Source: a virus
Virus record (IMG/VR): IMGVR_UViG_3300035210_000132
Span: 28,596 to 92,595 of that record
Length of the DNA stretch: 64,000 nucleotides
Direction: 5' to 3' (one strand)
In this document: positions 14,235-45,945 of the stretch, one piece after another
Layout: the number at the start of each line of letters is the position of its first letter
How positions within the stretch are numbered: the first letter of the stretch is position 1
Program-made: the position numbers and the translations under genes
Notes under the pieces: model-generated
Database searches by the model: none
Seen by the model: the letters and a program-made list of their open reading frames with translations, nothing else
What the model was told of the DNA's origin: nothing

Positions 14235-17200
14235 GTCCTCGTCAGGTAGATCTGCTCTCCAGAAGGCCTGACCAGCTTCTTGGAGGTATTGGGGCCGGCG
14301 ATGAAGTAAGCCTGCAGGTAGTTCCCCTTGAAGAGGGGAGTTCCTGAGCTTAGCCCGATCGCAGTCTCTGAGCGCATGCCTCTGATACGACGATCAGTGC
14401 CGTGGAACAAGGCGATCAGGAAAATGGGCAGATTGACCTTGAGTGCCCCTAGGTTCTTGATCTTGTCTTGCACGAGGTCCGAGCGAATCTCCGCAACATT
14501 CGGATCGATGTTATTAAGATACTGGATGATAGCAGAGGCCACTTCTGCTTCTGCTGATCCTCCCGAGTAGGAGGCGTCCAGCATGACGTATCCAGGCAGG
14601 AAGTGGCGCACCAGCATATTGGCGTTGGTGACTCGATCTAGGGGTGAGTCGAAGAACGACTGCACGTCGTCGACCAGAGGGGCATAGTTGTAAGTAACCT
14701 GGAGGTTCTGGCCAGCCAAGCTGAACTCGTTCTCTAGGTCTGCTGTGGATCCCACAGGCAAGACCGCGTTGGGCAAGATAATGTCTACCTGCTCCTTGTT
14801 CGAGAAAACGAAGTTCTCATCAGCAACTTCTAGGGTGTAACCACCAATCTTGCGATAACCGGAGAGCACAAACCCATCCGAGAAGCCGACATTCATGGCT
14901 GCGGAAGGGCCGTAACCGACGACAGGAAGATCGACATAGTACAGAGCCCCGTCACGATTGCTACTCATAGCCGTAGAAGAAATGCGAGTGACCCCGGAAC
15001 GTAGGATGCGATAGGGACACTTGTGGGCAAAGTTCCTCTGCCCATTTCCTGTGTCTACCACACCGGGAGCCTCTAACTCCATCTGCTTCTCGCTCGTATC
15101 CAGCAAGGGATGACTCTCGTCAGGTGACCAAGGAAAGCTCGTGACTTTCAGAGTCTTGCTGATGGAGTCATAGAGGCGAAAGCGTGCGAACTGATCCGAG
15201 ATCTCAGTGCCCCCGTCGGAGGTAGGAAGAGGCTCGGTAGAAGGGACCGCATGCAGTACCCAACGAACGAAGACCAGGTCCTCTGGGAAATCGGCCGAAC
15301 GTTCCAGCTCCACAAAATAGTCAGTAGCCAGGGTGAAGTGTGGGTCAGTGCCTACGGACAAGATACGATAGGTACCCAGATAGGTAGCATCGTTGGGTAC
15401 TAGGGCAGCCAACAGCGCCGGGCTCTGAGCTGCGTAGATCGTTATCCAGTCGGTTGCCTTGGCGCCAGAAAGCCCAGAGCCAAAGAGTTTCTTCGTCCCA
15501 GGAAGGACCAGGGCTCCTCGAGCACTAATACCAACATCCCCTACGGTGAATCGGATCCCGCCTCCGTAAGCACTGTCCACAGAAGGAGCTGCTACTTTGA
15601 TCCTCTTGAGGGGCCCGGTCTCCTTCGAGCTGACATAGAGGCGAGCCTTTACCAAATCAGCGCTATCGACGGCAACAGCCAGATAGTGAGCAGAGAACAG
15701 GACGTTGGCATTGAGGTCGGCCGCAACGTGATCTAGGTCTGGGTAGTAGCCACTCACGGTGTGGGTGATGGAAAAGGTATGTTCTACGTCGCTGATCCAA
15801 GTTACACCGTTATCCAAGGAGGTCTGAAAACGAACCCTCTTGCCCAGTACAAGACCTGTGTTTCCCGGACCCCACCCAGCATCGGTGCGCACGAAGGCGG
15901 AGGTATAGCTTGAAAAGTCGATCACGGGAGGAGGTACAGACCCAGACAAGACGGGCAAAACTTCCGTCGTGTGTGTCATGGTCCTGTCGAGTTGGATGCG
16001 CAGTAGCGGAGGGTTGGCTACCCAATCTTGCTGAGTCACCTGGATGATCGTGTAGACCCCCAAATCGGGACCACTGTCGATGTAGAAGAGCTGTCCTCCT
16101 GCCAAGGAGGTAAAGTTATCTGCCCCTCCGTAACCTGGGTACGAAGTACCATCGCTAGGCGGGATCAAGAGCTGCACGATGCTCGACCCGGTTTGGGTCA
16201 GGCATAGCCAGCTAGAGGCCATGTCTCCTCGAGCAGGCAAGTCAAGCAACGCTGGGTAGTACTCGAGGGTGTCCCCGACTCGGATGCCCTTCTTGGCGAA
16301 GGAGGATCCACTGGTCATGGCCACAAACCGATCCTGCTGATTACGCAGACCCAGATCACGGTTCCATAGAGCTGGATGCGTCTGAGCAAATGATTCAGGA
16401 ATAATCTGAGCTGCAGGTAGCTTGGGATCGATACGAAACTTCTTGGATCCGTCGGTAGCTAAAGCAAAGGTAGTGGGGTCTTCTTTGGAGTGGAACTCTA
16501 CGGACACAGGATCCAAGAAGTAGAGACGGAAGTCTCCCTTGGCCGAAGGCCCCACCGAGTAGCTGGTCCGGATGAGAGCATCAAAGAAGGTTTTCAACTC
16601 CCCATCACTGGAAAAAGCTATCCCCAAAGAAGAAAGACAGGTGCGGAGTTTGGTAATAAAGGTAGGGTAGAAACCGGCTCCGTTATCCCAGTCGGCAGCA
16701 TACTCCAGAAAACCAAAGAGCTCATCAGCAGTCCAGTCCGGTGCTACGGACACGTCGTTGATGAAGTTGATGGCGGTTCTGAGTGGGTCAACCTTGAGAG
16801 GAGGATCGACCTGTACTATCGCTACGGACCGGTGACCCTGGTCAGCCTTGCCCCAGAGCTCTAGCACACGAAGGTCGGTGATAAGGTAGTTCCCTTGATT
16901 GGGGCCATCGTAGATCGTCAAAGAGTTACCAACGGCAGCATCGGCTAGGTAACTGGTACGATGAGCTCCTGGAACCGCCGAAGAGAACTTGTTGTCGCGG
17001 TGAGCCACGAGAGCTAGAAGCTTGTCTCTTCTACCGTTCCATAAAAATGGAGGCACGTTGACTTCAGTGGTCTCGACTTGATTGGAGGCGTGGTGTGTGA
17101 TCTTGCGCACCACACCATCAGGCTCTTCCAGGCCAAGCGTATACCGGGCATCGGTCGTGTCGTCGATTGCCCCAGGAAGGACAGGGTCAGGAGTAAGGCC

Positions 17201-19219: not shown

Positions 19220-19870
19220 CTACAAAGTCATCTCAGCTACAGCTTGTTGCCCTGAGACAGCAGCCAGGGCGACGCGACACGAAAGGGTGGTAGTAGAGGC
19301 ATCAAAACCTATAGACTCTACCGAAGCCGACAGCAACCTTTCGCTGTTAGGTATGTTGGTCTTAGCAGCCTGGCGACTCATGATCTGGTCTCGGGCTCGG
19401 TTGACCGACGCCATGGCCGAGGCCTGGATGAGCTTTTGGTTGGTGTTAGAGACCGAGCTTCCTACGAGACGCAGTAGGCCGCCACCTTCCTTGGGATGGA
19501 AACGGTCGGATCCAGGGGTCTGTAGTAACATCCTGCAGAAGATCTGGACCAACCTCTCCAGGCCTTTCATCGTTTTGATGCTACCTGACACCTCGAAGTG
19601 CAGGGTGCTTTCCCTACTAACTGACGGCTTATCAGCAGACACTACTACAGAGCGAATAGGAGAAGCGCGCTCCGAGGTAGGAATCTGAGCTAGGAGTAGC
19701 CCAGACGACTCAACGATGAACTCAGGAGCCTCAACATCGTTGATCAGAACTCGGGATGCCTGGTCGAACTGATAGCCCACCACCACAAGACTGGGAGGAG
19801 AGAGGTCCGCATAAGCTACTTTAACAACTTCTAGGAGATCCCGGATCGTTAGGATCTTGATGTCTATCAT
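19220..19870 (-). CDS. Hypothetical baseplate-associated protein (216 aa).
   Basis: Coupled ORF adjacent to the baseplate-J-like gene. Confidence 0.5.
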   Translation of the reverse strand: MIDIKILTIRDLLEVVKVAYADLSPPSLVVVGYQFDQASRVLINDVEAPEFIVESSGLLLAQIPTSERASPIRSVVVSADKPSVSRESTLHFEVSGSIKTMKGLERLVQIFCRMLLQTPGSDRFHPKEGGGLLRLVGSSVSNTNQKLIQASAMASVNRARDQIMSRQAAKTNIPNSERLLSASVESIGFDASTTTLSCRVALAAVSGQQAVAEMTL

Positions 19871-34383: not shown

Positions 34384-34629
34384 TCACGTCCCCTTCTTGT
34401 TGGATCCTACCGTCTCTGGCGCCTTGCCTAAGAACTCGTCGATCGAATCCACTAGGATCTTGGCCGCCCCCTCAGCGTTGATGTCCTGCACCCCGACAGC
34501 CCCGCCTCTGGCCTTGGCCATCGCAGTCAAGAAATCGTACTGAGCGTTAAGGCGCTTGGTTTCTTTGTCGAAATACTCGGTGGCTGCTTTATTTAGCTCT
34601 TCCAGCCTCGCCGTTGCCTTGCCTGACAC
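34384..34629 (-). CDS. Small helical protein (81 aa).
   Basis: ORF 3 nt from its neighbours. Confidence 0.45.
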   Translation of the reverse strand: MSGKATARLEELNKAATEYFDKETKRLNAQYDFLTAMAKARGGAVGVQDINAEGAAKILVDSIDEFLGKAPETVGSNKKGT

Positions 34630-34637
34630 GGGACCTC

Positions 34638-35441
34638 CTACAGGAACTTAGCTGCATCCTGTACGTAGGTCGTGATCTTGCCACGGATGCGAGAGACCTT
34701 GGAAGGATGAATACCTGTCTGTTTGGAGATCTGCCCAGGCTGGAGACGAGGCTTGCCGTTTAGGCCCCACGTATATTCGTAGACCGTTCTCTCTTCTGGC
34801 GTCAAACGGCTGTCGTACTGCAAGATATGAATCGCCTCGAGCTCCTTAGAGTTCAGGAGCTCTGCTGGATCCTGATCCTCGGCGAACTGGGAGGCGATCA
34901 TGTCCTTGCGTGAGAGCTCCTTGGTCAGCTGAGCCACTTGCTTGGGAGACCACTTCAAGTGATCAGCAATGGCTTTCGTGTCTGGCTCAAACCCCAGAGT
35001 GTTCGACAGGTGCTCCTTGGCTTGCTTGAACTCGCGAATCTTGGCGATCTGGCCTTCGGGGATCTTGCCTAGATTCTGGTAGGTTTTGATGAACCTAGAG
35101 CTCTTCTTCAGATTCTGCTGCACCCAGGTGTTGAGCGCCGCCTTGGTCGGATTGAAGGTAGTCATCGCGGTGACGAACTGCTTCCGCATCTCGGCGTTGA
35201 TCGCCGACTTGGGGATCTCGACACCTCGATACTTGTTCGACTCCTTGTGAAGGAGAGGCTTGAAGGACTCGTAGAGGGGCTTTAGGTGCTCTGGTTTGCG
35301 TCCGTTGTTGTTCCAGTGATGCCAGAGGTCCACCTCTTTGCGCTGTGTGGCCTTGAACTGCTCTTTGTCTCTAGGAAGAGCCGCTTCCTTGGCCATCTCG
35401 ATGAACTCATCGAGAAGCGTTAGGTGGAAAATAGGGATCAC
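34638..35441 (-). CDS. RNA polymerase sigma factor, sigma-70 family (267 aa), with regions 2 and 4 recognisable. Located inside the structural (late) operon.
   Basis: Region 2.2-like 'TTFNPTKAALNTWVQQNLKKSSRFIKTY' (compare 'KFDPxxGxxFSTYAxWWIRQAI'). Region 4 HTH 'LTPEERTVYEYTWGLNGKPRLQPGQISKQTGIHPSKVSRIRGKI'. GTG start at 35441; the alternative ATG is at 35396. Confidence 0.65.
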   Translation of the reverse strand: MIPIFHLTLLDEFIEMAKEAALPRDKEQFKATQRKEVDLWHHWNNNGRKPEHLKPLYESFKPLLHKESNKYRGVEIPKSAINAEMRKQFVTAMTTFNPTKAALNTWVQQNLKKSSRFIKTYQNLGKIPEGQIAKIREFKQAKEHLSNTLGFEPDTKAIADHLKWSPKQVAQLTKELSRKDMIASQFAEDQDPAELLNSKELEAIHILQYDSRLTPEERTVYEYTWGLNGKPRLQPGQISKQTGIHPSKVSRIRGKITTYVQDAAKFL

Positions 35442-35944
35442 CCTCCACCAAAAATACGAGAAAGAATTCCTGGTGGCCTAGCTGCCGACGCCGCTCGCAT
35501 GGCCTTGACCTGGGGAGCCAACTGCCCTGGAACGTAGGATGAGGCACCTGCAGACGGATCCGGGATGCGCGTGATTCCTCCTCCTATCCTACCGTTCGAC
35601 ATTGCCCTATTGGCATTCCCAGCCGTGACCTGAGACAGGGTTCGACCAGGGATACCAACAGGCTTGCCTAGCGTGATCGCGATCTTCTGCAACTCGTCGT
35701 TGAAGCTGGGAAAGGCGAGCTTGAAGAAGGGATTGCCTCCGTGCTTGTCTCCCTTGCCCGGAAGCAGGCGCTTTAGGTCACTGGTAGCAGACCTCTCGAA
35801 GGCTCCTGTGTTGTCTAGGACCCCACTCAAGTAGGAGCGGGTAGAGGATCGGTTATCATCTACGTCAGCTACAGCAGCTTCCTGGCTGTTGCAGACCTTT
35901 GCTGCAGTCTCTTCGGCCAATTTCCTGAAGGAGGCTGATACCAT
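35438..35944 (-). CDS. Hypothetical protein (168 aa), Gly-rich C-terminus.
   Basis: Overlaps the sigma gene by 4 nt. Confidence 0.5.
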   Translation of the reverse strand: MVSASFRKLAEETAAKVCNSQEAAVADVDDNRSSTRSYLSGVLDNTGAFERSATSDLKRLLPGKGDKHGGNPFFKLAFPSFNDELQKIAITLGKPVGIPGRTLSQVTAGNANRAMSNGRIGGGITRIPDPSAGASSYVPGQLAPQVKAMRAASAARPPGILSRIFGGG

Positions 35945-35955: not shown

Positions 35956-36603
35956 TTAGCGAAAGCCTCGTAGGCGTGGAGTGTGGATGCGACCTGCCTC
36001 GAACCTACCTACCCTACTGGCGGTGGCGTTCAACTTGGCCGGAGTTTTTCCTATCCCGCCAAGAAGTGAAGCATGACCTAAAGAAGGAGACACCATGGCC
36101 TGCTTCTCTGCCTCCCCACTCCCAGGCAAGGGAAGGTGGTCATGTCGGTAAGCTCGGTCTGCTACACTGGCTGCGGCGCCACCTCCAGCGAGATAACGAG
36201 AGTTGCGGATAGCTTTGTGGATATTACCAGGGGCGCCATACTGGCCCGTCAGGGTTCGGTGAGCTCCGTACAGGGCTAAGCCATACGCGCCCCCTTTGAG
36301 ACCAGCGATCCCATAATCTCTCGCCTTCTGGTAGAAGTTGCGCTTCTTCTTGCGCGAGGTGATGTCGTAAGAGCCACTGGCTACATCAACCGCCGAAGGT
36401 CCCATGTATCCTAGCTTGATGGCGTATCGGCCTCCCATGTCTTCTATCGCGTTGCTAGGAAGCTGCCCGCCGGGCAGGTACTTCTCATCCCCACGACGAT
36501 CCGCATAAAGCTCGCGTAGATCTGCATCCAGAGGATCCTCTGGAACATCTGCAGCAGCCTTCATGATCTCGGTGGAGAACGCGTAGAAAGACCGGGCGTT
36601 CAT
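35956..36603 (-). CDS. Hypothetical protein (215 aa).
   Basis: ORF in the operon. Confidence 0.5.
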   Translation of the reverse strand: MNARSFYAFSTEIMKAAADVPEDPLDADLRELYADRRGDEKYLPGGQLPSNAIEDMGGRYAIKLGYMGPSAVDVASGSYDITSRKKKRNFYQKARDYGIAGLKGGAYGLALYGAHRTLTGQYGAPGNIHKAIRNSRYLAGGGAAASVADRAYRHDHLPLPGSGEAEKQAMVSPSLGHASLLGGIGKTPAKLNATASRVGRFEAGRIHTPRLRGFR

Positions 36604-36606
36604 AAC

Positions 36607-36837
36607 CTAACCGCCCTGCTGTAGCCGAACTTGCTTGCCGAGCTTCCTGTCTCGATTGGCCCTTCTAGCCGTCTCCCAGACCGCGGCACCAGCGGCGGCA
36701 GGGATCAGGTACTTCCCCTTGCCCTTCATGAGACCCGTAGGGGGAGCTTCGGCAGCGATCTTGCGAAGCTCGTCCTGAAAACCGTCCATCATGGGATCAA
36801 TATACATCTCTTCCTCCGTAGGTGCAGGGTACCGCAA
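36607..36837 (-). CDS. Small protein (76 aa).
   Basis: Chosen over the overlapping plus-strand ORF 36631..36861 because it fits the operon strand and packing. Confidence 0.4.
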   Translation of the reverse strand: MRYPAPTEEEMYIDPMMDGFQDELRKIAAEAPPTGLMKGKGKYLIPAAAGAAVWETARRANRDRKLGKQVRLQQGG

Positions 36838-36862: not shown

Positions 36863-39800
36863 TTAACCCTCGAGACCTACGCCAAGACTACCGGTGGCAG
36901 CATGAAGTTGGCCGACGTAGTCACGTACCTTCTCCAGTCTTCCTGGTCTGGGATCTAGATCTCGGTGGATGATGGCTTTCTTTCCATGACCCTTGCGAAA
37001 CCGTGGGATCTTGAGATCTGGATTGGTCAGCAACCCCCGGAGCTGCCCGCCCGCATCGTAGACGGCCGCAGAGTGAAAGCCTGGGGTACCTGACACCAGA
37101 GCAATAGCATCTCCGGCATTGATGTACTCTAGATCAGCAGAACCGAGGATCTCTTCTAGAGTAGCTATGGGTCTTCTAGTGTAGTCCTGGATAAAGCGGT
37201 TGACGTCGAGACCCTTGCGCTTCACTTCTCCGTAGATGTACGCCAGCTCGTCTACAGCCGACTCAATGTCAGGTACATCAGCAATGCTATCGGCTAGAGC
37301 AGAATCCATGATCTTCTTGATCTCGTTCTCGTCCCCTGTACACGCTCTGATGTCGGCGAGAAGCTTCTTCTGCTTCTCTCTGGAGGTACCAAAACTCGCC
37401 AGGCCGTCGTTGGGAGTTACGTAGAGCGCCTGATCTACGATAGAACCGCAACCGAAGAACTTCTCGTAGATCTCTTTGCCGATGAACCAATTCGAGTAGA
37501 GGTTGCTGAACCAGGGAGGACGTAGACCCTCCTCGATGGGAATGGTCTTGCTGCTGCGCTTCCGGTAGGTGGCCTTCTCGTAGATCGTGGCCTTCCTCCA
37601 GTAGTAGATGACATCTGCCTTCGCTACCGGAGCTCCGTTGATCAGAAGCTTACCTGTACCTGGGTCGGTCTGAAACTCTTTGACCAACACAGCGTCCGAG
37701 GTCTTGACTTTCTTGTTCTTGGGAGGAGTTACTCCCTTGGTCGCAAGATTCTTGCCTACCAGGGCCACTGCCTGAGCGGTCAGCGTGACGGGGTCTCCGG
37801 CACAAGCAACCTGTACTATCTTTCCGCCCAAAGGTCCCTTAGAACCTGGACCTAGCTTGCCTCCAGGAGAAGGAATCAAGATCTGGGTCTCTCCCTTTGG
37901 CGCGTTACCTTTGATGACGTGCCCCCTAATAGAAAGATAGCTGTCTGAAGTTACGGGAACGGTCTCTGGCGTCTTAGTAGCCGAGCGCAGGTCGTTCAGC
38001 CCGGCGAAGCTGTCTACTACTTTGGGTAGGCTCGCGGGACGGCTCTCTAGCGGGATCTGCTCTTGTCCTGCCGCCCCCTCGTCCTCTTGATCTTGACGTT
38101 GAGCAAGAGACACAGCTACCTGGGCCAGATTTTGAGGCGTGATGTCACGAAGGAAGTTCAGCATCTTCCAGTTGCCTTCGGCGATCAACTTTTCTGCGTC
38201 TAGCTCTGTGGGCACAATCTCGGTGATGGGGGTGTTGGTGATCTCTGAAGAGATGGTATCCAAGAAGTCATCGTCAGTAATGCGATGCGTACGAGCATGC
38301 GTCATGGTGATGGAGGTGTGGCCACCCTCTTGGCTCACCGAATGGGACATGCCTGCGATCATGCCTATGTACTGAGTAGGCGCATTGAACTTACGAGCAG
38401 CCGTACGAACGAACTCAGACATGTCGTCTTTGAAGTTCTCCGGGACTGCCTGCAGCACCTCGTCGCGCCGCTCTGGGGTCAGGATGAAAGGCTTGTCCAA
38501 GATCACAGTGGGGAAGCCGCATACCAGCCAGGGAGTGAACTTGGCTGAGATCTCACAAGACCGGGCAGAGAAGCGATACCTCAGGTAGTTGAAATTGGCC
38601 GTCCTTTGAGCGTACTCAGATGCAGGTCCTGAGATCTGGGTGTTCTTATTGTTCTTGTTGATCTTCTCGACGATGTAGTTGACCTCATGCATCGTCTCGA
38701 ACTTCGGCAGGATGCCTGAGTAGATCTCCCAAGGAAGCAAGACACGGATGGAGCTGTTGCCCTGCTTCTTCGCCATCTCCATGAGCTGCGTAGTAGTGGG
38801 GGCAAAATGGTAAACGTCTAGTAGTCCGTAAGTCCCTTGATTGATACCAAAGGTCAGATCCGTAGATAGACGGAGCCTGGTGCACTCCTGGAGAAAGCTC
38901 CGCGAGAATTGGAACTGGGTGTACTGATCCGGGAACAGGACGTTGCATCTTGGCGCTGCAGCGAAGAAGCAGTCGGGGCGAAAGATCTGGGTCCCTAGCA
39001 TAGGGAGTTCCCCTTCTACGTACACATCCTTTTGCCCTGTGACTTTGCCGTCTCCCTGCAAAGCCTTCATGAGAAAGTCGTAGACCTTGGCCCAAACTTT
39101 ACGGTTACTGGAAAAAACTGGGGGGTCTTGGGGCACAGGCTCTTTGAAGAACACCTTGCTGCCTTTGTTATCCTCAAAGAATACTTTGTTGCCCTTGGTC
39201 TTACTACCACTCTTGCTGGCTGGAGTGCTGTTCTGGCGAATAAGGTTAGGCGCCAGCGAGCCCATAACAATGAGGTTGGCTTTATTCAGCTCAGCTGCCG
39301 TGGGAGAGAACTGTACATCTCTAAGGTCTTTAACCTCTCCTTTTGCGAGCTCCAAAAAATCGGCAGTTTTAGCAGGAATAGAAGTTTTCTTTGGAGGCGC
39401 CGGGACACTAGCAGCAGCTTGATTGAATAGCTGTTCTGGTGCAGAAGGCTGATACCCTGTAGTAGCATTGGTGATCAGCTGTTCAGCCGCCAAGTACTTT
39501 ATGTTCTGCTGCAGCTGCTCGATCCTACTATTTTTTGTCATAGCCAAGATAGCTTCTATTTCATCAGCTACTTGGATACCTAGGACCGTTTCTTTCCTTT
39601 CTTGGCCATCCGCTTTATATTTCCAATCCCTGTAAGTGGCAACTTTGACTGCAAGTGCACGGATCTTGTCCGACAGCTCGTCAGATAGGCCAGAACCCGA
39701 ATAGGTGTTCATTTTCTTGGTCGTACTGTCCTTGGACTTGGTGTACATCGCACAAGGATTAGGGACGACCTCGTAGTAGACATAGGTGAAGAGCAGCTTT

Positions 39801-40642
39801 ATCATGTCCCGGAAGGTCACCAGAGAGCCCATGCTGGACATGCCTCGCGTGAGCCAGTCCATGAAGGTCTTCTCTTCGAAAAGCCGGGTAGCTGTATCAT
39901 CATTCTCTTCTGCTACGATCTGCTGCAGGATGTGGTTCTTGAGCTCAGCAATCGTGAAGAAGTCGTTGACGCCACTGGTGTGGTTGGCGACCCCTCCCAT
40001 GGCCTCGAGGAGAGAGATGATACCTCCCATCAAGCCCTTGATCTTGGTTAGTCCTGGGGTCTGAGGAGCGGATCGCAGGTATTCGTCCATGACCGACGTA
40101 TGCCCTGAGGTCAGGTCGTCGAACATGTTATCGGCTCCGGCCCAGACCGCTGCCGAGGTACCAAGAAAGCCACTGCCTGAGTACGAGACGAAGAACTGGT
40201 AAGTGGTGTCCCAGTAGGTCGAGAAGTCAGAGCACTGCAGGACAGCCTGGCGACCCACCGGGCTCTTCGCCATCATGATGCCGATGATCTCACCGCAAAA
40301 GAAGAGCTTGTAGCCCCGGAGATCTAGGTCAAAACGATCCCCTGAGACGTCTTGGGAGCTTATCAGGTCTTTAGCAGCGTCGACTTCAATGTGATAGAGA
40401 GACGCCAACACTTGCGGATCAGTCGTCGTCGAAGGCGTACCTGCGACATCCAGGGTATAGTCCCAGAAGAAGAGATGGACCATGGTACGAGGCTTGAGAC
40501 TCAAGATCCCATCAGTGGGCACGACTTGGATGGAAGCCGTAGCGGGAGCGTTGATGCCCATCTGTACTTGGGCTGAAATGACGGGGACCTCGATGCCCTC
40601 GAGGAAAAGCCTAAGCCCTAGCCTCTGTCCTGTCATCGTCAT
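36863..40642 (-). CDS. Very large virion protein (1259 aa), mixed alpha/beta. No motif recognised; possibly a portal or other multi-domain structural protein.
   Basis: Long ORF. Its start overlaps the stop of the 407-aa gene by 1 nt. Confidence 0.55.
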   Translation of the reverse strand: MTMTGQRLGLRLFLEGIEVPVISAQVQMGINAPATASIQVVPTDGILSLKPRTMVHLFFWDYTLDVAGTPSTTTDPQVLASLYHIEVDAAKDLISSQDVSGDRFDLDLRGYKLFFCGEIIGIMMAKSPVGRQAVLQCSDFSTYWDTTYQFFVSYSGSGFLGTSAAVWAGADNMFDDLTSGHTSVMDEYLRSAPQTPGLTKIKGLMGGIISLLEAMGGVANHTSGVNDFFTIAELKNHILQQIVAEENDDTATRLFEEKTFMDWLTRGMSSMGSLVTFRDMIKLLFTYVYYEVVPNPCAMYTKSKDSTTKKMNTYSGSGLSDELSDKIRALAVKVATYRDWKYKADGQERKETVLGIQVADEIEAILAMTKNSRIEQLQQNIKYLAAEQLITNATTGYQPSAPEQLFNQAAASVPAPPKKTSIPAKTADFLELAKGEVKDLRDVQFSPTAAELNKANLIVMGSLAPNLIRQNSTPASKSGSKTKGNKVFFEDNKGSKVFFKEPVPQDPPVFSSNRKVWAKVYDFLMKALQGDGKVTGQKDVYVEGELPMLGTQIFRPDCFFAAAPRCNVLFPDQYTQFQFSRSFLQECTRLRLSTDLTFGINQGTYGLLDVYHFAPTTTQLMEMAKKQGNSSIRVLLPWEIYSGILPKFETMHEVNYIVEKINKNNKNTQISGPASEYAQRTANFNYLRYRFSARSCEISAKFTPWLVCGFPTVILDKPFILTPERRDEVLQAVPENFKDDMSEFVRTAARKFNAPTQYIGMIAGMSHSVSQEGGHTSITMTHARTHRITDDDFLDTISSEITNTPITEIVPTELDAEKLIAEGNWKMLNFLRDITPQNLAQVAVSLAQRQDQEDEGAAGQEQIPLESRPASLPKVVDSFAGLNDLRSATKTPETVPVTSDSYLSIRGHVIKGNAPKGETQILIPSPGGKLGPGSKGPLGGKIVQVACAGDPVTLTAQAVALVGKNLATKGVTPPKNKKVKTSDAVLVKEFQTDPGTGKLLINGAPVAKADVIYYWRKATIYEKATYRKRSSKTIPIEEGLRPPWFSNLYSNWFIGKEIYEKFFGCGSIVDQALYVTPNDGLASFGTSREKQKKLLADIRACTGDENEIKKIMDSALADSIADVPDIESAVDELAYIYGEVKRKGLDVNRFIQDYTRRPIATLEEILGSADLEYINAGDAIALVSGTPGFHSAAVYDAGGQLRGLLTNPDLKIPRFRKGHGKKAIIHRDLDPRPGRLEKVRDYVGQLHAATGSLGVGLEG

Positions 40643-41865
40643 CAGACGGGGGCCTTCGGAAGGTACTTCGACACCTGCAGAATCTGCTTGCCTGTGGCCA
40701 CTGAAGCGATCGTGTTCACGTTGACTGCTCCAAAAGACACTGAGCCTACGGTGGCTGCGATGTCGTCTTTGATGGGGATGGCCTTGGCGACTTCGAGGAG
40801 TTGTGACCCTCCGGGTAGTCCCTTGACCCCATCCCCGAGCCTTCCAATCGTAGAGTTGACGGTATCGAAGGGCAGCTTCGCTATCTGCTTGTCGATCTCC
40901 GAAGAGATCTTCTTCTCTGCGATAGCGATACCGGCCTTGGCTGCCTGTACCGCTATGGTCTTGACCAGGGAGACCAGCAAGGACTCCTTAGGGCCACTCA
41001 AGGCCGGAGTAGTCGAAGCAGGATAAGGAGAGTTGACAAAGTCACGAGAGATGAACTCATCCGAGTTGTCGCTGAGATAGGTACTGGTTACCTGCGCTCT
41101 TTTGGTGTCTGTCAAAGAGGCACCGTAGGCAGTTTGGGCGGCCTCCAAGTAAACCCCCTTATCAAACTCAGTCTTAGCCTGGGACCCAGTGTCGACTGTA
41201 GCTTTTGGGGCACTAGGCAACCACTTGGCCTTCGGGTTTCCTATGTTGGAGATGTTCTGGTAATTCGTCAGAAAGAGCTCGAACTGGAAGTGGACTAGAT
41301 TCCTCTCCTGGGACGATTCCTGGGCAGCTGCCTTGGTCATGTACCCTTCGACCACGATCTCGTCCCAGGACAAGTAGACTCGGCTGTTGGAGCGCACACA
41401 AGAAGTCCCACGAAGGTACCTCTCGTAGTTCTCCCACCACTCGGCTCTCCAGTTGAAGTCATCGGTGTTGAGGAGGACTCCCGTGATGCTCAGACTTCTA
41501 GGCTGCTCCCCGAAGAAGAAGATAAAGGGATCTCCGAAAGTCGTGATGATCTGCTGTTTCTCTACCCGCTGCTCGACTATCTGCTGGATCAGGAAGTTGG
41601 AGTTGTAGGCCCCTGTCCCTGAATTATCTTCCGCTGCCGCATCGAACAGGGGCATGGGGGTGCCATCGGCCTTCCTGACCTGGAGCATGGCATAGGTATC
41701 CTCTTTGATCTGGATGCCTCGCATGGGCCGTCGAACCATATGAGGAGAGAGCATCCCGTAGCCAGGAGTGGTTGGGTTCCCGATGACCCCTTGCTTCTGC
41801 TCATCGGCAACAGCGTTGAAGCGCTTGCCGAAAGCATCGGGCTCGATCACGACGAAGGTAGACAT
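40642..41865 (-). CDS. Structural protein (407 aa).
   Basis: Coupled ORF with a conserved-looking core 'FGDPFIFFFGEQPRSLSITGVLLNTDDFNWRAEWWENYERYL'. Function not recognised. Confidence 0.55.
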   Translation of the reverse strand: MSTFVVIEPDAFGKRFNAVADEQKQGVIGNPTTPGYGMLSPHMVRRPMRGIQIKEDTYAMLQVRKADGTPMPLFDAAAEDNSGTGAYNSNFLIQQIVEQRVEKQQIITTFGDPFIFFFGEQPRSLSITGVLLNTDDFNWRAEWWENYERYLRGTSCVRSNSRVYLSWDEIVVEGYMTKAAAQESSQERNLVHFQFELFLTNYQNISNIGNPKAKWLPSAPKATVDTGSQAKTEFDKGVYLEAAQTAYGASLTDTKRAQVTSTYLSDNSDEFISRDFVNSPYPASTTPALSGPKESLLVSLVKTIAVQAAKAGIAIAEKKISSEIDKQIAKLPFDTVNSTIGRLGDGVKGLPGGSQLLEVAKAIPIKDDIAATVGSVSFGAVNVNTIASVATGKQILQVSKYLPKAPV

Positions 41866-42266: not shown

Positions 42267-45200
42267 CTACGAGATGGTCTTTAGCTTCTCAAAGACAATA
42301 TTTAGGGCACTCGAAGCTGTGATGGCTTGCGCGTTGAGCTGGTTGAACAAGGACTTGACCGACTCTTCACTGACCCCGGCTGCCCCTGCTTTGGAGCCGG
42401 GGGTACTGAGGTGGCTGTGAACACCTTTATCTTTTATTAGCTTACTAATGTTGGCCATCTCGTCTGCATCGATCCGATTGTCCTTGTTGACATCCAGAGC
42501 TTGCCCTTCTTTGTAGAGGTCAGACCCAGCCAACCCTAGAGAGTCACCAACCGCCTCATCGAACGAGAGGGTTCTCTTCTTACCTCTCCGGTCGGTACCC
42601 TTCAACGTCTTACTGACCCCCTTCAACCTGACATTTTCCTCACCCAAGCGCAGAACATCAGGGGCAATATCTTTGTAGGCCGACATGGTTGCCCCTCTAC
42701 TCCTCTCATCCATCTCAGCGTAAGCTTCTCCTGCGGCTTGCAGAGCAAGACGAGAGTCTGAGAGGTTGGAGAGGGTAGCGGACTTGTATGTCTTGCCCAT
42801 CTGAGATAGGGCCTCTGAGAAAGCGGCACTCTTACCCTTAGTGGTTTTGGATAGGTTGGTGGCTACGTTAGAGCCTGTACCACCTGAAGCGAGTTCCGCG
42901 CCATGCCCCTGCAGCTTACTGATATTTTCTTTAGTCGCCGTAGCAGCGGTGAACTGAAGATAACCCTGCATAGCCTCTCGTACTTCTTTGGTCATGCCGG
43001 GTATAGCCGAGTGCAGTTTATTCCTCAGTCCTGACTTATCTTCATTGAATTTTTTGATATCCTCATCAGTCATCCCGTTCTTTTTTAGGAAGTCTACTTG
43101 AGCTTGGTTGAACTCTCCTCTTTGACTGAGGATGCTCTCGAAGATATCCGAAGATGCTGGGTCAAGGCTCTTCTCAATAGCCCTTCCTATTCCCGTATCC
43201 TCGTTGATTAGATCCTTGATCTGAGCCCAGGAAGCCGCCCCTTTTTCTCCTTTTAGGCTATGCCCTAACTGGGTATCAAGAGCCTTCGTAGACCTGGCTA
43301 GTTCCTGCCAGTCGTAGGAGGCCAAGGATCCAGAGTAACTTTTGCTTAGCTCCTTGGCTCCTGGCATGTAGCGGTTATTCTCAGGAGCCAAGGCTGTAAG
43401 AACTTCTATGGCTTTGCTTGGATCTCCTCCAGTGGCCTTTTCCCATAAGGCTTTCGTGGGAGACCCGAAAACGTTAGCAGCGGTCTGCACAAGACTACCC
43501 TCACTGCTACCACTAAGCCTATCCACCAGGTATTTGGCCTGACCTTCAGGGGATAGATTTTTTAGATCTTCGTCAAAAGAAGCCTCGTAGAGGCGCTTTT
43601 TAAGATCAGCAACTCCCTCGGGTCCTACCGAAGCTTCTAGTCTGGAGGCCAAGCTCTTCTTATTGGCGTCCAGAGAATTTAGGTAGCTAACCTGATCTGC
43701 TACATCTTGTTCGGTTACTACTACTTTGTAGTCGCCGTGCCCAGATAGCATCCCTGCACCCACGCCTATCCCTATGCCCAAACCAACAGGATTTCCTGTC
43801 GCGAAACCCGCTGCGACGGCGAAGGCGGCGTTAGCGCGTCGATCCCACTTACCTCTATCCTCTAGCATGGCTACATTTTCGTCGGTCATGGCCATGGGTC
43901 CGGAGTAGCCCTCGGCAGTCAAACTCATAAACCTACCACCAAACAGGGCTTTTCGTTCGTCAAGAGAGCGTTGATTTGGATCAACTACTCCGATGCCCTT
44001 CAGTATGTCGGTGTCTAAGCCATATTTCGAGGAGTCATAAATGGTGGTGGCGTCAGTATGGGTACGCTTACCGACAGCACTCAAGTAACTCAGTGCAGAG
44101 GCGTCGCCACGAGAAGCGTCGTTAAATAGACGAGACCCTCGCTTTGTGACCTCGACTTTATAAGACCCAGTCATGGTGTCGACAAAGTCTTCGGCCCAGT
44201 CACCGATATAATCTCTGACTGCAACTCCCAAGTCCTTGGCGAAATCGACTCCGGTGATATGACTGAGTTTGGTCGAGATCTTTTTCTTGACCGCTTCCCA
44301 GGAGTTCTCTCCTAGAGCTTGGTTACGGGCTGCCTGTTCTGCCGCCATGCGACGCTGGGAAGAGAGTTCTAGGCCCACAGTCTTGAGGTTCGGCATGACC
44401 TGCTGCAGCAGGGTGGCTTCTTCTTCCGTAGCTCCGAACCGCTGCATGACCAGGTTCATGGCATCTTCGTTGTGCCATCCACGCTCTCCCAGAAGATGCT
44501 GCAACTGGGAGGCGATCATTTCTGGTCCTGCTTCCCCTACCATGTTGGCTGTAAGCCGGGCTCGCTTGGCTACAAAAGAGAGTTTGGCCTCGCGGGTGTT
44601 GGCCTTCTGATGGGCTATTTGTAGGAGCTCTCCCTTGCTGAGCCCCCCAGAGCGAAATCTTTCCAGTAGCTCCTGGTCCATAGCCCCCGTGTAGCGGCCA
44701 TCTACCACCTCGCCCATCGCCAAGGTCATCGCTGTGCCGACCCCAGAGCGAGCCATCTTATAGCCCAGGTTGTTCAGGCTCACGGCCATGTCCTGCAGGC
44801 CTTCCGCGCCCTCCTTACCTGTCATCTCCACAATCTGAGAGTTGGAGAGTATCCCTAGCTGATTGGCCATACCCAACTGGTTGGCCGTCCGGGTAATAGC
44901 ACGCGCTCCAATCTGACGGCTACCTCCACGAGAATGACTAACCTCGCCCCCAAACTGCTGAAGGCGACTGACCTGCTCTTGGGTCATGCCCGTAACACTA
45001 GCCGTAACCTGCTTCAGTATCTGGTTGCCTCGGATCTCCTGATCGGTATAGAAGCCCGAGAGACGTGATTCAGAAAAGGACTGCAGGGCTCCTTCCATGG
45101 TCGTGCCCATCATCTTCGCCATGTCGCGAAGTGTGGTGACCATCTTCTGGAACTTGCCTGTGAAGTCTCCTACCGTCTTGAGGCCTTGCATGAGCCCCAT

Positions 45201-45821
45201 CTGACCCATCTTGTCCATGAGCTGATTCAGCTCACCGAATGAGGTCAGCATCTCGGGCATGCGTTCCATGTGGCGCACCATGTTACCGATGGCGGCCGTG
45301 TCCATGCGCGAGAAGCCTTGGCCTTGAAATCCAGAGGGATTCTGAAAACGGAACTGGCCTAAGGTCCTCTCGAGCTGGGATTGCTCCTGGGCCCCCTCCA
45401 TCATGTTGCCGAAGATGTGGCTTCCTATGGCCCCAACTCCCATACCAAGGACACCGCCTGCCACTGCGCTGCGTACGACTCCGGCGGTACCCATGCCCAA
45501 GCCGTGGGCTGCAAGACCGGCACTCATGCCGAAGCTGATCCCTTGGGTCATCGGGCTGAAGACAGCCTGACCGATACCTCCTACAACTGACGTACCCAGG
45601 TTGGCGAGACCTCTGAGGTCTCGAGCCGCTCCGTAGTTGAAGCCTGGTCCCGGACCTGCTCCGTAAGCGGATCCTCCCTGAAGAGGTGACCCCATGAAGC
45701 CAGGACCCGACTGCCCTCCGTAAGCCCCGGGCATCTGAGCAGACAGGGGAGGAGCCATGGGAGTAGAAAGCATCTGCCCCTGCTGGGCATGCATTGCGGA
45801 GATCTGCCAGGAAGATAACAA
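42267..45821 (-). CDS. 1184-aa Gly/Met/Gln-rich, mostly alpha-helical protein with glycine-zipper hydrophobic segments. Resembles a tape-measure or ejection (internal virion) protein. First gene of the minus-strand structural operon (TTG start; the first ATG is 9 codons in).
   Basis: Segments such as 'GISFGMSAGLAAHGLGMGTAGVV...GGVLGMGVGAIG' and 'AFAVAAGFATGNPVGLGIGIGVGAGMLSG' are typical of membrane-inserting segments in tape-measure-like proteins. GGAG lies 9 nt upstream of the TTG, and an in-frame TAG just upstream fixes the 5' limit. Confidence 0.5.
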   Translation of the reverse strand: MLSSWQISAMHAQQGQMLSTPMAPPLSAQMPGAYGGQSGPGFMGSPLQGGSAYGAGPGPGFNYGAARDLRGLANLGTSVVGGIGQAVFSPMTQGISFGMSAGLAAHGLGMGTAGVVRSAVAGGVLGMGVGAIGSHIFGNMMEGAQEQSQLERTLGQFRFQNPSGFQGQGFSRMDTAAIGNMVRHMERMPEMLTSFGELNQLMDKMGQMGLMQGLKTVGDFTGKFQKMVTTLRDMAKMMGTTMEGALQSFSESRLSGFYTDQEIRGNQILKQVTASVTGMTQEQVSRLQQFGGEVSHSRGGSRQIGARAITRTANQLGMANQLGILSNSQIVEMTGKEGAEGLQDMAVSLNNLGYKMARSGVGTAMTLAMGEVVDGRYTGAMDQELLERFRSGGLSKGELLQIAHQKANTREAKLSFVAKRARLTANMVGEAGPEMIASQLQHLLGERGWHNEDAMNLVMQRFGATEEEATLLQQVMPNLKTVGLELSSQRRMAAEQAARNQALGENSWEAVKKKISTKLSHITGVDFAKDLGVAVRDYIGDWAEDFVDTMTGSYKVEVTKRGSRLFNDASRGDASALSYLSAVGKRTHTDATTIYDSSKYGLDTDILKGIGVVDPNQRSLDERKALFGGRFMSLTAEGYSGPMAMTDENVAMLEDRGKWDRRANAAFAVAAGFATGNPVGLGIGIGVGAGMLSGHGDYKVVVTEQDVADQVSYLNSLDANKKSLASRLEASVGPEGVADLKKRLYEASFDEDLKNLSPEGQAKYLVDRLSGSSEGSLVQTAANVFGSPTKALWEKATGGDPSKAIEVLTALAPENNRYMPGAKELSKSYSGSLASYDWQELARSTKALDTQLGHSLKGEKGAASWAQIKDLINEDTGIGRAIEKSLDPASSDIFESILSQRGEFNQAQVDFLKKNGMTDEDIKKFNEDKSGLRNKLHSAIPGMTKEVREAMQGYLQFTAATATKENISKLQGHGAELASGGTGSNVATNLSKTTKGKSAAFSEALSQMGKTYKSATLSNLSDSRLALQAAGEAYAEMDERSRGATMSAYKDIAPDVLRLGEENVRLKGVSKTLKGTDRRGKKRTLSFDEAVGDSLGLAGSDLYKEGQALDVNKDNRIDADEMANISKLIKDKGVHSHLSTPGSKAGAAGVSEESVKSLFNQLNAQAITASSALNIVFEKLKTIS

Positions 45822-45899
45822 GGGCCGCTACTCCGTCTAGGTGTGGGCCCTCATTGTAGGAGGGTACCTAGGGGAAGGGCAAGAGTTTGGGGCTAGGGC

Positions 45900-45945
45900 A
45901 AAAAAAGGGCCCGCCTGGGTTCCAGTCCAAGCGGGCCTTCTACAC
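45900..45945 (-). terminator. Rho-independent terminator on the minus strand: a GC-rich hairpin (GGCCCGCCTGG / CCAAGCGGGCC) followed by a T7 run (A7 on the plus strand at 45900-45906). It terminates the RHH gene upstream of the structural operon.
   Basis: Read directly; this is the only clear hairpin plus U-tract in the window. Confidence 0.6.

What the first reader, a model, noticed from the sequence alone, without database searches (positions are those of the whole stretch)
34638..35441. Sigma-70-family factor encoded inside the structural-gene operon
Regions 2.2 and 4.2 are readable in this 267-aa protein, which sits between hypothetical virion genes. A phage-encoded sigma placed within the late module implies autoregulatory late transcription and a non-host promoter consensus for the structural and late genes. 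That consensus might be deducible from the few intergenic regions: upstream of 45821, 32800, 5464, 57625 and 46466.
Basis: partly seen in the sequence, partly recalled or inferred. Interest (0 to 1): 0.6.

Follow-up and report, generated by a model that had tools for sequence, protein, structure and literature searches.

The report
Phage sigma factor inside tail-gene operon
A large uncultured phage encodes a true but very divergent sigma factor in the middle of its tail genes, and because its relatives also encode their own bacterial-type RNA polymerase, the sigma probably steers the phage's polymerase (perhaps carried inside the virus particle) and not the host's.

Summary
Window 34638-35441 (-) encodes a 267-aa sigma-70-family protein with sigma2, sigma3 and sigma4 domains. 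Support: Pfam Sigma70_r3 above its cutoff, a family profile matching RpoS/RpoD in the PDB at 4e-10, and an AF2 model whose top 50 Foldseek matches are all sigma factors. The gene is translationally coupled to its neighbours inside a 45-kb tail/baseplate operon. That position is conserved in about 200-kb metagenomic relatives and in the distant isolates Salmonella phage Arash and Vibrio phage D69.

I found no robust shared promoter motif. Relatives of this phage encode a single-chain beta-beta' RNA polymerase of about 2,100 aa plus an SNF2 helicase next to the portal gene. Arash encodes a split version of the same polymerase. In Arash, published virion mass spectrometry lists the orthologous sigma (24 peptides) and the polymerase, but its second sigma is absent from the parts of that table I read.

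Best reading: this is the specificity subunit of the phage's own polymerase, made late and probably packaged for early transcription in the next infection. Packaging, and a polymerase in this exact genome, are inferred. The contig covers only about half the genome. I rate it a new variant of a known kind, interest about 0.65.

The parts
34638..35441 (-). Sigma-70-family gene, 267 aa, GTG start
   Evidence: ORF. Pfam Sigma70_r3 above cutoff. Family profile vs PDB gives RpoS at 4.4e-10. AF2 model with Foldseek hits all sigma factors. 140 homologues.
35295..35441 (-). N-terminal extension, residues 1-49. It holds a conserved helix (consensus ILDEFLxLxKEA, D11 invariant), a variable linker and a W40/W43 helix.
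   Evidence: Alignment A1. Helices H7-20 and H26-45 in the AF2 model. The extension is absent from Arash gp10 and D69 gp11.
35067..35294 (-). Sigma2 domain, residues ~50-125 (regions 2.1-2.4). E84 aligns with sigma-70 E407 and W106 with Y430. W433/W434 are replaced by Q109/N110.
   Evidence: HMM alignment to RpoS. Helices H50-69, H78-94, H103-111 and H114-122. Residue numbering in E. coli sigma-70 is from my own knowledge.
34908..35057 (-). Sigma3 domain, residues ~129-178. It is preceded by the family signature R116, Y121-Q122-N123 and E129.
   Evidence: Pfam Sigma70_r3 over residues 134-174. Invariant columns in A1 and A3.
34851..34907 (-). Region 3.2-like linker, residues ~179-197, low confidence and acidic
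   Evidence: pLDDT 53-67 with no helix. Gapped, variable columns in A1.
34644..34850 (-). Sigma4 domain, residues ~198-266, with helix-turn-helix PGQIxKxTGxHPSKVSRIR
   Evidence: Profile alignment to RpoS region 4. Weak HTH_24 hit over residues 229-251. Helices H198-207, H215-225, H235-242 and H246-266.
35438..35944 (-). 168-aa Gly-rich protein. Its stop overlaps the sigma start. Carries the motif SFNDELQKIA.
   Evidence: Orthologue in L002.
35956..36603 (-). 215-aa Gly-rich protein with N-terminal motif AFSTEIMKAA
   Evidence: Orthologues in L002 and L007.
36607..36837 (-). 76-aa protein (66 aa in the contig's own gene call) with motif GFQDELRKIA
   Evidence: Orthologues with the motif in L002, L007 and L008.
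34384..34629 (-). 81-aa protein immediately downstream of sigma, conserved partner gene. Its C-terminus reads SIDEFLGKAPE.
   Evidence: a gene of 77-84 aa follows sigma in every relative read.
36863..40642 (-). 1259-aa virion-type protein. Its N-terminus is homologous to Arash gp8, annotated there as a cell-wall hydrolase and structural protein.
   Evidence: Arash virion MS.
40642..41865 (-). 407-aa protein homologous to Arash gp6 and D69 gp7 (structural)
42267..45821 (-). 1184-aa first gene of the operon, positional counterpart of Arash gp4
   Evidence: Conserved in L002, L008 and L009. Synteny.
19220..19870 (-). 216-aa protein homologous to Arash gp12 (structural)
14231..19210 (-). 1659-aa Baseplate_J-like protein homologous to Arash gp13 and D69 gp14
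   Evidence: Pfam Baseplate_J at 2.1e-5, above cutoff..
45853..45882 (-). Candidate promoter of the 45-kb operon, TTGCCC-18-TACAAT. It ends 31 nt before the start codon.
   Evidence: A consensus match only, function untested.
45908..45937 (-). Strong intrinsic-terminator-like hairpin (11 pairs, 9 G-C, then T7) that closes the upstream transcription unit
13941..13970 (-). Candidate internal promoter TTGACT-18-TAGACT, 19 nt before gene 13025-13921, inside a 309-nt gap

Best explanation
Shown: the gene encodes a complete but highly divergent sigma-70-family initiation factor (sigma2, sigma3, linker, sigma4). It belongs to a large, phage-only sigma family. In this family the gene is fixed in the tail/baseplate operon, and here it is translationally coupled to its neighbours.

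Shown for relatives only: the lineage consists of jumbo phages of about 200 kb. These encode a single-chain bacterial-type beta-beta' RNA polymerase of about 2,100 aa and an SNF2 helicase next to the portal gene.

Inferred:
- The sigma is the promoter-specificity subunit of that phage polymerase, not a hijacker of host core.
- It is made late together with tail proteins, so it is probably incorporated into the virion, as its Arash orthologue and the Arash polymerase appear to be.
- It is then delivered with the DNA so that the phage polymerase can start early transcription in the next cell. A different factor, such as the second sigma seen in Arash, would take over later.
- Its DNA-contact residues differ from housekeeping sigmas, so its promoter should be distinct. 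I could not define that promoter.
For: Sigma identity.

Position in the operon: 4-nt start/stop overlap with the upstream gene within a tightly packed 45-kb minus-strand operon. The gene order 1184-aa, small genes, 407-aa, 1259-aa, 66-aa, 215-aa, 168-aa, SIGMA, 81-aa is the same in every relative read. The position between the gp8-like and gp12/gp13-like genes is kept in Arash and D69, whose sigmas are only 33% identical.

The family is phage-only. There was no match in 185,579 species-representative bacterial and archaeal genomes. There are 315 clusters at 50% identity with E<=1e-30.

Co-occurrence with a phage polymerase:
- Arash gp206 is a beta plus beta'-N fusion (Rpb2_6 2.8e-56, Rpb1_2 6e-16), gp216 is beta'-C and gp217 is SNF2.
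- The three D69-type Vibrio phages have the same polymerase at 56% identity. These four are the only isolates in INPHARED that carry this sigma family.
- In the window's own clade, polymerases of 2,050-2,110 aa sit on contigs whose lengths are identical to those carrying sigma and PolA homologues: 185,667, 182,991 and 81,209 bp.
- The 182,991-bp contig reads portal-like gene, RNR, RNAP (with NADFDGD), further genes, SNF2.
- IMGVR_UViG_3300009431_000002 carries both the sigma and the polymerase on one named contig.

Virion association: in purified Arash virions Gp10 sigma gave 24 unique peptides and 467 spectra, comparable to the neighbouring baseplate proteins. The polymerase gave the most spectra. 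A term search of the paper's main text for 'Gp196', the second sigma, found no occurrence, and it is missing between Gp194 and Gp197 in the part of Table 2 that I read (PMC10585845).

Interface: the phage polymerase keeps its clamp helices and flap tip, but the residues that contact sigma are diverged. This fits a co-adapted, private sigma-core interface.
Against: No polymerase gene was seen in the window or in the 82.6 kb of its 99.8-kb contig that I could read. Its presence in this exact genome rests on relatives whose sigmas are 60-68% identical.

The contig-length matches are indirect for the closest clade. The direct same-contig case has a sigma only 34-35% identical to the window's.

The Arash virion list holds 116 of 252 proteins, including ribonucleotide reductases. 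It came from a sucrose-gradient preparation, so carry-over is possible.

Nothing here shows packaging in this clade, sigma-polymerase binding or any promoter. The two best candidate promoters in the window look sigma-70-like.
Confidence: 0.45

Rival explanations
1. The partner is the same (the phage's own beta-beta' polymerase) but the timing differs. The sigma is not packaged. It accumulates in the infected cell and directs the phage polymerase to late promoters, including that of its own operon (positive feedback).
For: The gene is co-expressed with late genes. Candidate TTGNNN-N18-TANNNT sites lie upstream of the structural operon, an internal late gene, a LigD_N gene and the polymerase gene of a relative. 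The Arash virion list is generous and could include abundant late cytoplasmic proteins.
Against: There is a bootstrap problem. The operon has essentially one entry promoter, and the sigma gene lies 10 kb inside it. If the polymerase is packaged, it needs an initiation factor on arrival. Arash has a second sigma, encoded outside the structural genes and absent from the virion-list passages I read, which fits the intracellular role better. From general knowledge, known late-switch sigmas are early or middle genes.
Confidence: 0.25
2. The sigma binds host core RNA polymerase and redirects it to non-host late promoters, in the way T4 gp55 or SPO1 gp34 do.
For: This is the usual role of phage sigmas. 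Reviews state that sigma-encoding jumbo phages lack their own polymerase (PMC7598289 and PMC7824862). E84 aligns with the core-binding E407 of sigma-70 (numbering from my own knowledge). No polymerase gene lies in the window itself.
Against: Every genome of this sigma family that could be checked also encodes a beta-beta' polymerase. No non-host consensus emerged from the intergenic regions. The gene's position is unlike that of known late-switch sigmas.
Confidence: 0.2
3. The sigma fold has been exapted. The protein would be a structural or DNA-binding virion component, or a decoy that sequesters host core or a host factor, with no role in promoter-specific initiation.
For: The DNA-melting aromatic pair W433/W434 is lost and the -35-contact residues are replaced (numbering from my own knowledge). 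The gene lies among baseplate genes. The N-terminal helix motif is shared with neighbouring Gly-rich proteins.
Against: All three sigma domains and the linker are retained, with strong conservation across 315 or more clusters at 50% identity. The family co-occurs consistently with a polymerase that has no other recognisable specificity factor. ECF sigmas also lack the W-W pair and are functional (general knowledge).
Confidence: 0.07

Closest known systems
Salmonella phage Arash Gp10 (WGL32461.1, annotated 'RNA polymerase sigma factor RpoS') and Vibrio phage D69 VPHD69_0011
   Same: Homologous: 33% identity, E 8.5e-19 and 1e-19. They share the signature R..xxYQN..xxE. The slot is the same, between the gp8-like gene and the gp12/gp13 baseplate genes. 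These genomes also encode a beta/beta' polymerase and an SNF2 helicase.
   Different: They are shorter (229-234 aa) and lack the N-terminal LDEFL helix, and their sigma4 is more diverged. Their polymerase is split into beta-beta'N plus beta'C instead of one chain. Their genomes are about 180 kb. Arash Gp10 has virion MS evidence, which the window protein lacks.
Bacterial group 2/3 sigma factors (RpoS, SigB/SigF, FliA)
   Same: Same sigma2-sigma3-sigma4 architecture. They are the best sequence-profile and fold matches.
   Different: About 15-19% identity. Curated family cutoffs are not reached. Region 2.3 lacks the conserved W-W pair and the region 4.2 contact residues differ. The family was not found in any representative bacterial genome.
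Phage sigmas that retarget host core: T4 gp55 (with gp33), SPO1 gp28 and gp33/34, phiEco32 gp36, and the sigmas of 'group 2' jumbo phages
   Same: All are phage-encoded members or derivatives of the sigma-70 family that change promoter specificity (general knowledge; PMC7824862).
   Different: Those phages have no polymerase of their own, and their sigma genes are early or middle genes. Here the gene lies in the late tail operon and the lineage has its own polymerase. No PHROG family was matched.
phiKZ gp68 and AR9 gp226, the specificity subunits of phage non-virion multisubunit polymerases
   Same: On the best reading, the same job: a promoter-recognition subunit for a phage-encoded beta/beta'-type polymerase (PMC13282480 and PMC7598289).
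   Different: Those proteins have no recognisable sequence similarity to sigma and act with a non-virion enzyme split into four or five pieces. This one is a recognisable sigma-70-family protein and its partner would be a single-chain polymerase.
Virion-packaged transcription machinery: N4 vRNAP, phiKZ-type vRNAP, crAss-like gp66
   Same: The logic is the same: a late gene in or next to the structural genes, whose product is packaged and injected to transcribe early genes (general knowledge).
   Different: Those are polymerases that need no separate sigma. A packaged sigma-70-family factor has not, to my knowledge, been characterised.

Membership tests
Sigma-70 family (Pfam Sigma70_r2/r3/r4; NCBIfam TIGR02937) | Sigma3 domain (region 3) | tested here: met
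   PF04539 scores 26.3 bits against a gathering cutoff of 25.3, residues 134-174. The same domain is precomputed on many homologues.
Sigma-70 family (Pfam Sigma70_r2/r3/r4; NCBIfam TIGR02937) | Sigma2 domain (regions 2.1-2.4) | tested here: met
   Pfam r2 gives no hit for the window protein. However, the family profile aligns without large gaps to RpoS residues 101-200, the AF2 model has the four-helix sigma2 unit, and full-length Foldseek alignments are to sigma factors. Arash gp10 shows a weak r2 hit.
Sigma-70 family (Pfam Sigma70_r2/r3/r4; NCBIfam TIGR02937) | Sigma4 domain with region 4.2 helix-turn-helix | tested here: met
   Pfam r4 gives no hit, only HTH_24 at 0.003. The profile alignment runs to RpoS residue 326 through region 4.2. 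SigK and SigBFG models match residues 193-262. Four helices are predicted at pLDDT 79-91.
Sigma-70 family (Pfam Sigma70_r2/r3/r4; NCBIfam TIGR02937) | Whole-protein score above the curated family cutoff | tested here: not met
   TIGR02937 scores 27.2 bits against a cutoff of 42.9. All other NCBIfam sigma models fall far below their cutoffs.
Sigma-70 family (Pfam Sigma70_r2/r3/r4; NCBIfam TIGR02937) | Binds RNA polymerase core and confers promoter-specific initiation | not testable with these tools
   Needs biochemistry or complex prediction.
Group 1/2 (RpoD/RpoS-like) sigmas | Conserved region 2.3 aromatic residues (sigma-70 Y430, W433, W434) and region 4.2 R584/E585/R588 contacts | tested here: not met
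   In the alignment, W106 aligns with Y430, but W433/W434 align with Q109/N110. R584, E585, R586, R588 and Q589 align with P, S, K, S and R. E. coli numbering is from my own knowledge.
ECF (group 4) sigmas | Only sigma2 and sigma4, no sigma3 domain | tested here: not met
   Sigma3 is present.
Arash Gp10 / D69 gp11 'tail-module' phage sigma family | Sequence homology with the shared signature R116, Y121-Q122-N123, E129 | tested here: met
   BLASTP E 8.5e-19 and 1e-19. Invariant columns in A3. The A1 HMM hits Arash and D69 at 2.7e-30 and 4e-28.
Arash Gp10 / D69 gp11 'tail-module' phage sigma family | Gene sits between the gp6/gp8-like genes and the gp12/gp13 (Baseplate_J) genes | tested here: met
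   In the window about 14 kb of extra genes lie between the sigma and the gp12-like gene.
Arash Gp10 / D69 gp11 'tail-module' phage sigma family | Genome also encodes a bacterial-type beta/beta' polymerase | tested here: inconclusive
Not seen in the 82.6 kb read of the window's own 99.8-kb contig.
Arash Gp10 / D69 gp11 'tail-module' phage sigma family | Protein present in the virion | not testable with these tools
   Only published MS for Arash is available (PMC10585845).
T4 gp55-type late sigma | Similarity to gp55-like phage families | tested here: not met
   No PHROG hit better than E 0.065, and none to a sigma family.

The most novel reading that the evidence does not exclude
The sigma is a bona fide virion component. 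It would be loaded, perhaps through the N-terminal helix it shares with its neighbouring small proteins, together with the phage's single-chain beta-beta' polymerase. Both would be injected as a ready-made, sigma-dependent viral holoenzyme that transcribes early genes. If so, this would be the first sigma-70-family factor shown to work with a viral polymerase and the first shown to be delivered from one cell to the next inside a virus particle. It would also overturn the stated rule that polymerase-encoding phages have no sigma and sigma-encoding phages have no polymerase.
Probability: 0.4. Interest if true: 0.85.

Novelty: new variant of a known kind. Interest (0 to 1): 0.65.

Why it matters
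Reviews of large phages draw a clean line. Phages with their own multisubunit polymerase have no sigma. Phages with a sigma have no polymerase and borrow the host's (PMC7598289 and PMC7824862).

This window belongs to a widespread lineage that appears to have both. I counted 315 sigma clusters at 50% identity and 264 IMG/VR loci with the polymerase. The sigma gene is also parked among tail genes.

If the pairing is real, three things follow:
- It is a natural, compact and orthogonal transcription system made of one polymerase chain plus one small sigma.
- It bears on how sigma-dependent initiation relates to viral polymerases.
- It points to a new kind of cargo that a phage may inject.

It can be tested now, because Salmonella phage Arash and the Vibrio D69-type phages are in culture and carry the orthologous gene set.

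Tried and rejected
- Close relatives among deposited phages: megablast of 16 kb found none. tblastn of the 1184-aa protein found none.
- PHROGs on the sigma and nine neighbours gave almost nothing. Pfam on 39 window proteins left most unannotated.
- Promoter discovery: sigma-70-type scans were not enriched. The direct-repeat search gave no motif. k-mer enrichment in 26 upstream regions gave only the ribosome-binding site. A post-hoc TTG-N21-TA pattern is enriched at spacer 18, but with only 4 sites. I kept this as a lead, not a result.
- Polymerase in the window: the HMM of the Arash-type polymerase, run with no filters, gave nothing. No DxD[GAS]D motif occurs in any of the 47 window proteins translated.
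- Finding the polymerase on the sigma-bearing contigs with Arash-based patterns failed, because only relatives at 49% identity or more were returned. That scan still yielded L072.
- Prophage or bacterial origin: none found in GTDB representative genomes.
- Source names from cluster members were uninformative.
- Rfam and tRNA scans found nothing.
- Left flank through gene 45-929: not on record.
- Record-level confirmation that sigma P0021/P0037 and polymerase P0482/P0468 share one contig was not displayed, because similar places were collapsed in the output. Only the same sample series and identical longest-contig lengths support it.
- The idea that one of the large unannotated window proteins is a hidden polymerase was rejected.
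Full report

Yes. The minus-strand ORF 34638-35441 encodes 267 aa from a GTG start. The GTG overlaps the TGA of the upstream 168-aa gene (GTGA at 35441-35438). The next gene starts 8 nt after the sigma stop, behind a GGAGG that overlaps that stop. An independent gene caller on the source contig gives the same protein.

- Pfam Sigma70_r3 passes its gathering score (26.3 vs 25.3 bits).
- 14 of 15 weak NCBIfam hits are sigma families, but none reaches its curated cutoff. PHROGs has nothing.
- A 24-sequence family alignment (A1) used as a profile against PDB sequences gives RpoS at 4.4e-10 and RpoD at about 1e-6, over profile positions 59-267, that is regions 2 through 4.
- An AlphaFold2 model (mean pLDDT 77.6) shows the expected helices for sigma2, sigma3, a disordered acidic linker and sigma4. 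All of its top 50 Foldseek PDB matches are sigma factors.

So it is a sigma-70-family protein with a sigma3 domain, which rules out the ECF group. It is very divergent. In the alignment the region-2.3 W-W pair of housekeeping sigmas is replaced by Q-N, and the region-4.2 contact residues are different (E. coli numbering is from my own knowledge).

**2. Context in the window**

- The gene lies about 10 kb inside a nearly gap-free 45-kb minus-strand operon, from 45821 down to about 1173.
- The operon starts behind a strong terminator-like hairpin (45937-45908) and a TTGCCC-18-TACAAT site (45882-45853).
- Most products match nothing in Pfam or PHROGs.
- The 1659-aa protein carries Baseplate_J. 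The 128-aa protein matches the podophage GP4 fibre protein Gp80.
- No tRNA or Rfam family is present.

**3. Relatives**

No deposited phage is close at the DNA level. The protein has 140 homologues at 45-70% identity in metagenomes, on contigs up to 211 kb. An exhaustive profile search finds 315 clusters at 50% identity with E<=1e-30. None is found in 185,579 representative bacterial and archaeal genomes, so the family looks phage-only.

Gene order around the sigma is the same in every relative read: a 1122-1186-aa gene, small genes, 407-472 aa, 1110-1259 aa, 65-68 aa, 212-264 aa, 168-201 aa, SIGMA, 77-84 aa.

PolA homologues of the window's contig sit on contigs with exactly the same lengths as the sigma homologues, for example 211,514, 202,211, 199,380 and 185,667 bp. 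The clade therefore has genomes of about 200-215 kb, and the window's 99.8-kb contig is about half a genome.

**4. The bridge to cultured phages**

tblastn finds a 33%-identical homologue in three Vibrio phages of the D69 type, 186 kb. The 407-aa neighbour hits a structural protein of Salmonella phage Arash, 180.8 kb.

Local comparisons show a collinear, distantly homologous module:
- Window 407-aa protein ~ Arash gp6.
- Window 1259-aa protein (N-terminus) ~ gp8.
- Window sigma ~ gp10 (33% identity, E 8.5e-19).
- Window 216-aa protein ~ gp12.
- Window 1659-aa protein ~ gp13.

An alignment across all clades shares the signature R116, Y121-Q122-N123, E129. Among 50,697 deposited phage records only Arash and the three Vibrio phages carry this sigma family.

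**5. What Arash adds**

The Arash paper (PMC10585845) reports MS of sucrose-gradient-purified virions.
- Gp10 'sigma factor RpoS' has 100% coverage, 24 unique peptides and 467 spectra. That is similar to its baseplate neighbours.
- The most-detected protein is Gp206, annotated as the RNA polymerase beta subunit. Gp216 and the helicase Gp217 are also abundant.
- Arash's second sigma, gp196, has no occurrence in a term search of the paper's main text. It is also missing between Gp194 and Gp197 in the part of Table 2 that I read. I did not read the whole table.
- Caveat: the authors list 116 of 252 proteins, including ribonucleotide reductases, and themselves allow for carry-over.

I checked the polymerase annotations. 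Gp206 is a genuine beta plus beta'-N-terminal fusion (Rpb2_6 2.8e-56, Rpb1_2 6e-16, catalytic AADYDGD). Gp216 is the beta' C-terminal part and Gp217 is an SNF2 helicase. The Vibrio phages have the same polymerase at 56% identity.

**6. Does the window's own clade have a polymerase?**

It is not in the window. An unfiltered HMM search of all six frames of the window, both flanks and five relatives' sigma loci found nothing. No DxD[GAS]D motif occurs in any of the 47 window proteins translated. The Pfam tables of the flanks are negative.

Arash-based searches returned only close relatives at 49% identity or more. A generic rpoB-motif scan of IMG/VR was truncated, but it brought in L072. L072 carries a 36%-identical Arash-type polymerase, followed by a protein that is 43% identical to the gene just upstream of the sigma in L009 and 40% identical to a LigD_N protein on the window's contig.

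Using the L072 polymerase as query returned single-chain beta-beta' proteins of about 2,050-2,110 aa. Their longest-contig lengths coincide with those of sigma and PolA homologues of the window clade:
- 185,667 bp: P0425 (polymerase), P0045 (sigma), P0134 (PolA).
- 182,991 bp: P0482, P0021, P0163.
- 81,209 bp: P0468, P0037, P0185.
- Five more lengths are shared with PolA homologues only.

The sigmas on these three contigs are 60-68% identical to the window's.

On the 182,991-bp contig the order is: portal-like gene (30% to the Arash portal), RNR, polymerase (2,099 aa, NADFDGD, 32% to gp206 plus 25% to gp216), further genes, GNAT/C39 peptidase, SNF2 (39% to gp217). The same neighbourhood recurs in five other contigs.

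A direct, named same-contig case is IMGVR_UViG_3300009431_000002. It has the sigma at 191-202 kb and the polymerase at 142-150 kb. 264 IMG/VR loci encode relatives of this polymerase.

The polymerase keeps the clamp helices and the flap tip, but the residues that contact sigma in bacteria are changed.

**7. Mechanism**

Shown:
- A complete sigma-70-family protein.
- Co-transcription and translational coupling with tail/baseplate genes.
- Conservation of that position across very distant phages.
- Co-occurrence of this sigma family with a phage beta-beta' polymerase wherever it could be checked.

Inferred:
- The sigma is the specificity subunit of the phage polymerase.
- It is packaged and acts at the start of the next infection.

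The argument for packaging has four strands:
- The Arash MS data.
- A packaged core polymerase needs an initiation factor on arrival.
- Arash has a second sigma, outside the structural genes and not seen in the virion data I read, that could serve later stages.
- Known late-switch sigmas are early or middle genes (general knowledge).

The main weaknesses are the generous Arash list, the absence of any direct data for this clade, and the fact that the polymerase in this exact genome is inferred from relatives.

**8. The promoter question**

Post hoc, TTGNNN-N18-TANNNT occurs 4 times in 6.5 kb of upstream DNA from this clade, 0.62 per kb against 0.07 per kb in coding sequence. Spacer 18 is the best of nine spacers tried. 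The four sites are:
- Before the structural operon (45882-45853).
- Before gene 13025-13921 (13970-13941).
- Before the LigD_N gene on the same contig.
- Before the polymerase gene of a relative.

That is suggestive at most. It looks sigma-70-like and not 'non-host', and I cannot say which holoenzyme would use it.

**9. Comparison and novelty**

Phage sigmas are well known, and the Arash orthologue was already annotated as a sigma and listed in a virion proteome. The new points are:
- A large phage-only sigma family whose gene is fixed in the tail/baseplate operon.
- Its systematic co-occurrence with a bacterial-type phage polymerase, against the dichotomy stated in reviews.
- The resulting possibility of a virion-delivered sigma.

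Full-text searches found no paper that analyses this.

Verdict: new variant of a known kind, interest 0.65.

Noticed in passing
window 34384-36837 (-): genes 36607-36837, 35956-36603, 35438-35944, 34638-35441, 34384-34629: A short helix motif recurs here: [FL]x[DT]E[LIF]x[KM][IA]A (GFQDELRKIA, AFSTEIMKAA, SFNDELQKIA, LLDEFIEMA). Among the predicted proteins of window 1-46.5 kb the regex hits only these four consecutive genes, including the sigma N-terminus. The 81-aa downstream protein ends with the similar SIDEFLGKAPE. The motif is conserved in orthologues of the three upstream proteins in L002, L007 and L008. It could be a shared docking or packaging signal. The regex was built after seeing the sequences.
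   Followed up: partly
L224 10001-16300 (ena:ERZ27271344:k119_569572), L229-L233, L278: Relatives of the window phage encode a single polypeptide of about 2,100 aa that fuses the beta and complete beta' subunits of a bacterial-type RNA polymerase. It has GDKIVGRHGNKG and NADFDGD. It sits near a portal-like gene and is followed by a C39 peptidase (fused to GNAT in L224). An SNF2 helicase follows in L224. 264 IMG/VR loci carry relatives of it.
   Followed up: partly
window 45853-45882 (-), 13941-13970 (-); L013 17019-17128 (-); L224 9782-10000 (+): TTGNNN-N18-TANNNT sites lie 19-95 nt upstream of gene starts. They are about 9-fold enriched over coding sequence, with spacer 18 the best of nine tried. 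Only four sites, and the pattern was chosen post hoc.
   Followed up: partly
window intergenic regions, e.g. 45837, 45868, 45893, 13939-13963: The tetranucleotide CTAG is about three times denser in intergenic DNA (15 in 1,564 nt, 9.6 per kb) than in the window overall (3.0 per kb). Three CCTAG copies lie in the 60 nt before the structural operon.
   Followed up: no
window 13922-14230: A 309-nt gap with no convincing ORF on the operon strand sits inside an otherwise gap-free operon, between the Baseplate_J-like gene and the next gene. It has no Rfam match.
   Followed up: partly
window 57625-63811 (+), continuing in L013 to about 13841: A second structural-looking cluster lies on the opposite strand. 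It holds a papain-family protease (58316-59110, PF00112 1.8e-13) and a second Baseplate_J-like protein with a CBM_5_12 module (61604-63811). Outside the window it continues with two Laminin_G_3 proteins and two PG_binding_1 proteins.
   Followed up: no
window 46466-47974 (+): An ATP-dependent DNA ligase (DNA_ligase_A_M 5.3e-9) is transcribed divergently from the structural operon. A separate LigD_N phosphoesterase-domain protein lies on the same contig (L013 15579-17018).
   Followed up: no
L009 7639-9861; L072 8665-10665; L013 15579-17018: A LigD_N-like protein moves around in this phage group. It lies immediately upstream of the sigma in L009, about 4.7 kb downstream of the polymerase in L072, and elsewhere on the window's contig. 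The copies are 40-44% identical.
   Followed up: partly
window 33463-33849 (-) and 32864-33595 (-): The 128-aa protein matches Pfam Gp80 (fibre I of podophage GP4, 2.4e-17) and PHROG 240 'head protein'. The listed 243-aa ORF overlaps it by 133 nt. The contig's own gene call is shorter at 196 aa.
   Followed up: no
L012 657-1694 (Arash gp196): Arash has a second sigma of a different type (345 aa, Sigma70_r2 6e-10). The tail-module sigma HMM does not hit it. It is encoded outside the structural genes, and a term search of the paper's main text finds no mention of it.
   Followed up: partly
L229 4794-8450 and 25662-26339: In one relative the ribonucleotide reductase carries a LAGLIDADG insertion, and a 1,798-aa gene carries two intein/LAGLIDADG elements. 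D181 and D148 have a homing endonuclease inside the polymerase gene region.
   Followed up: no
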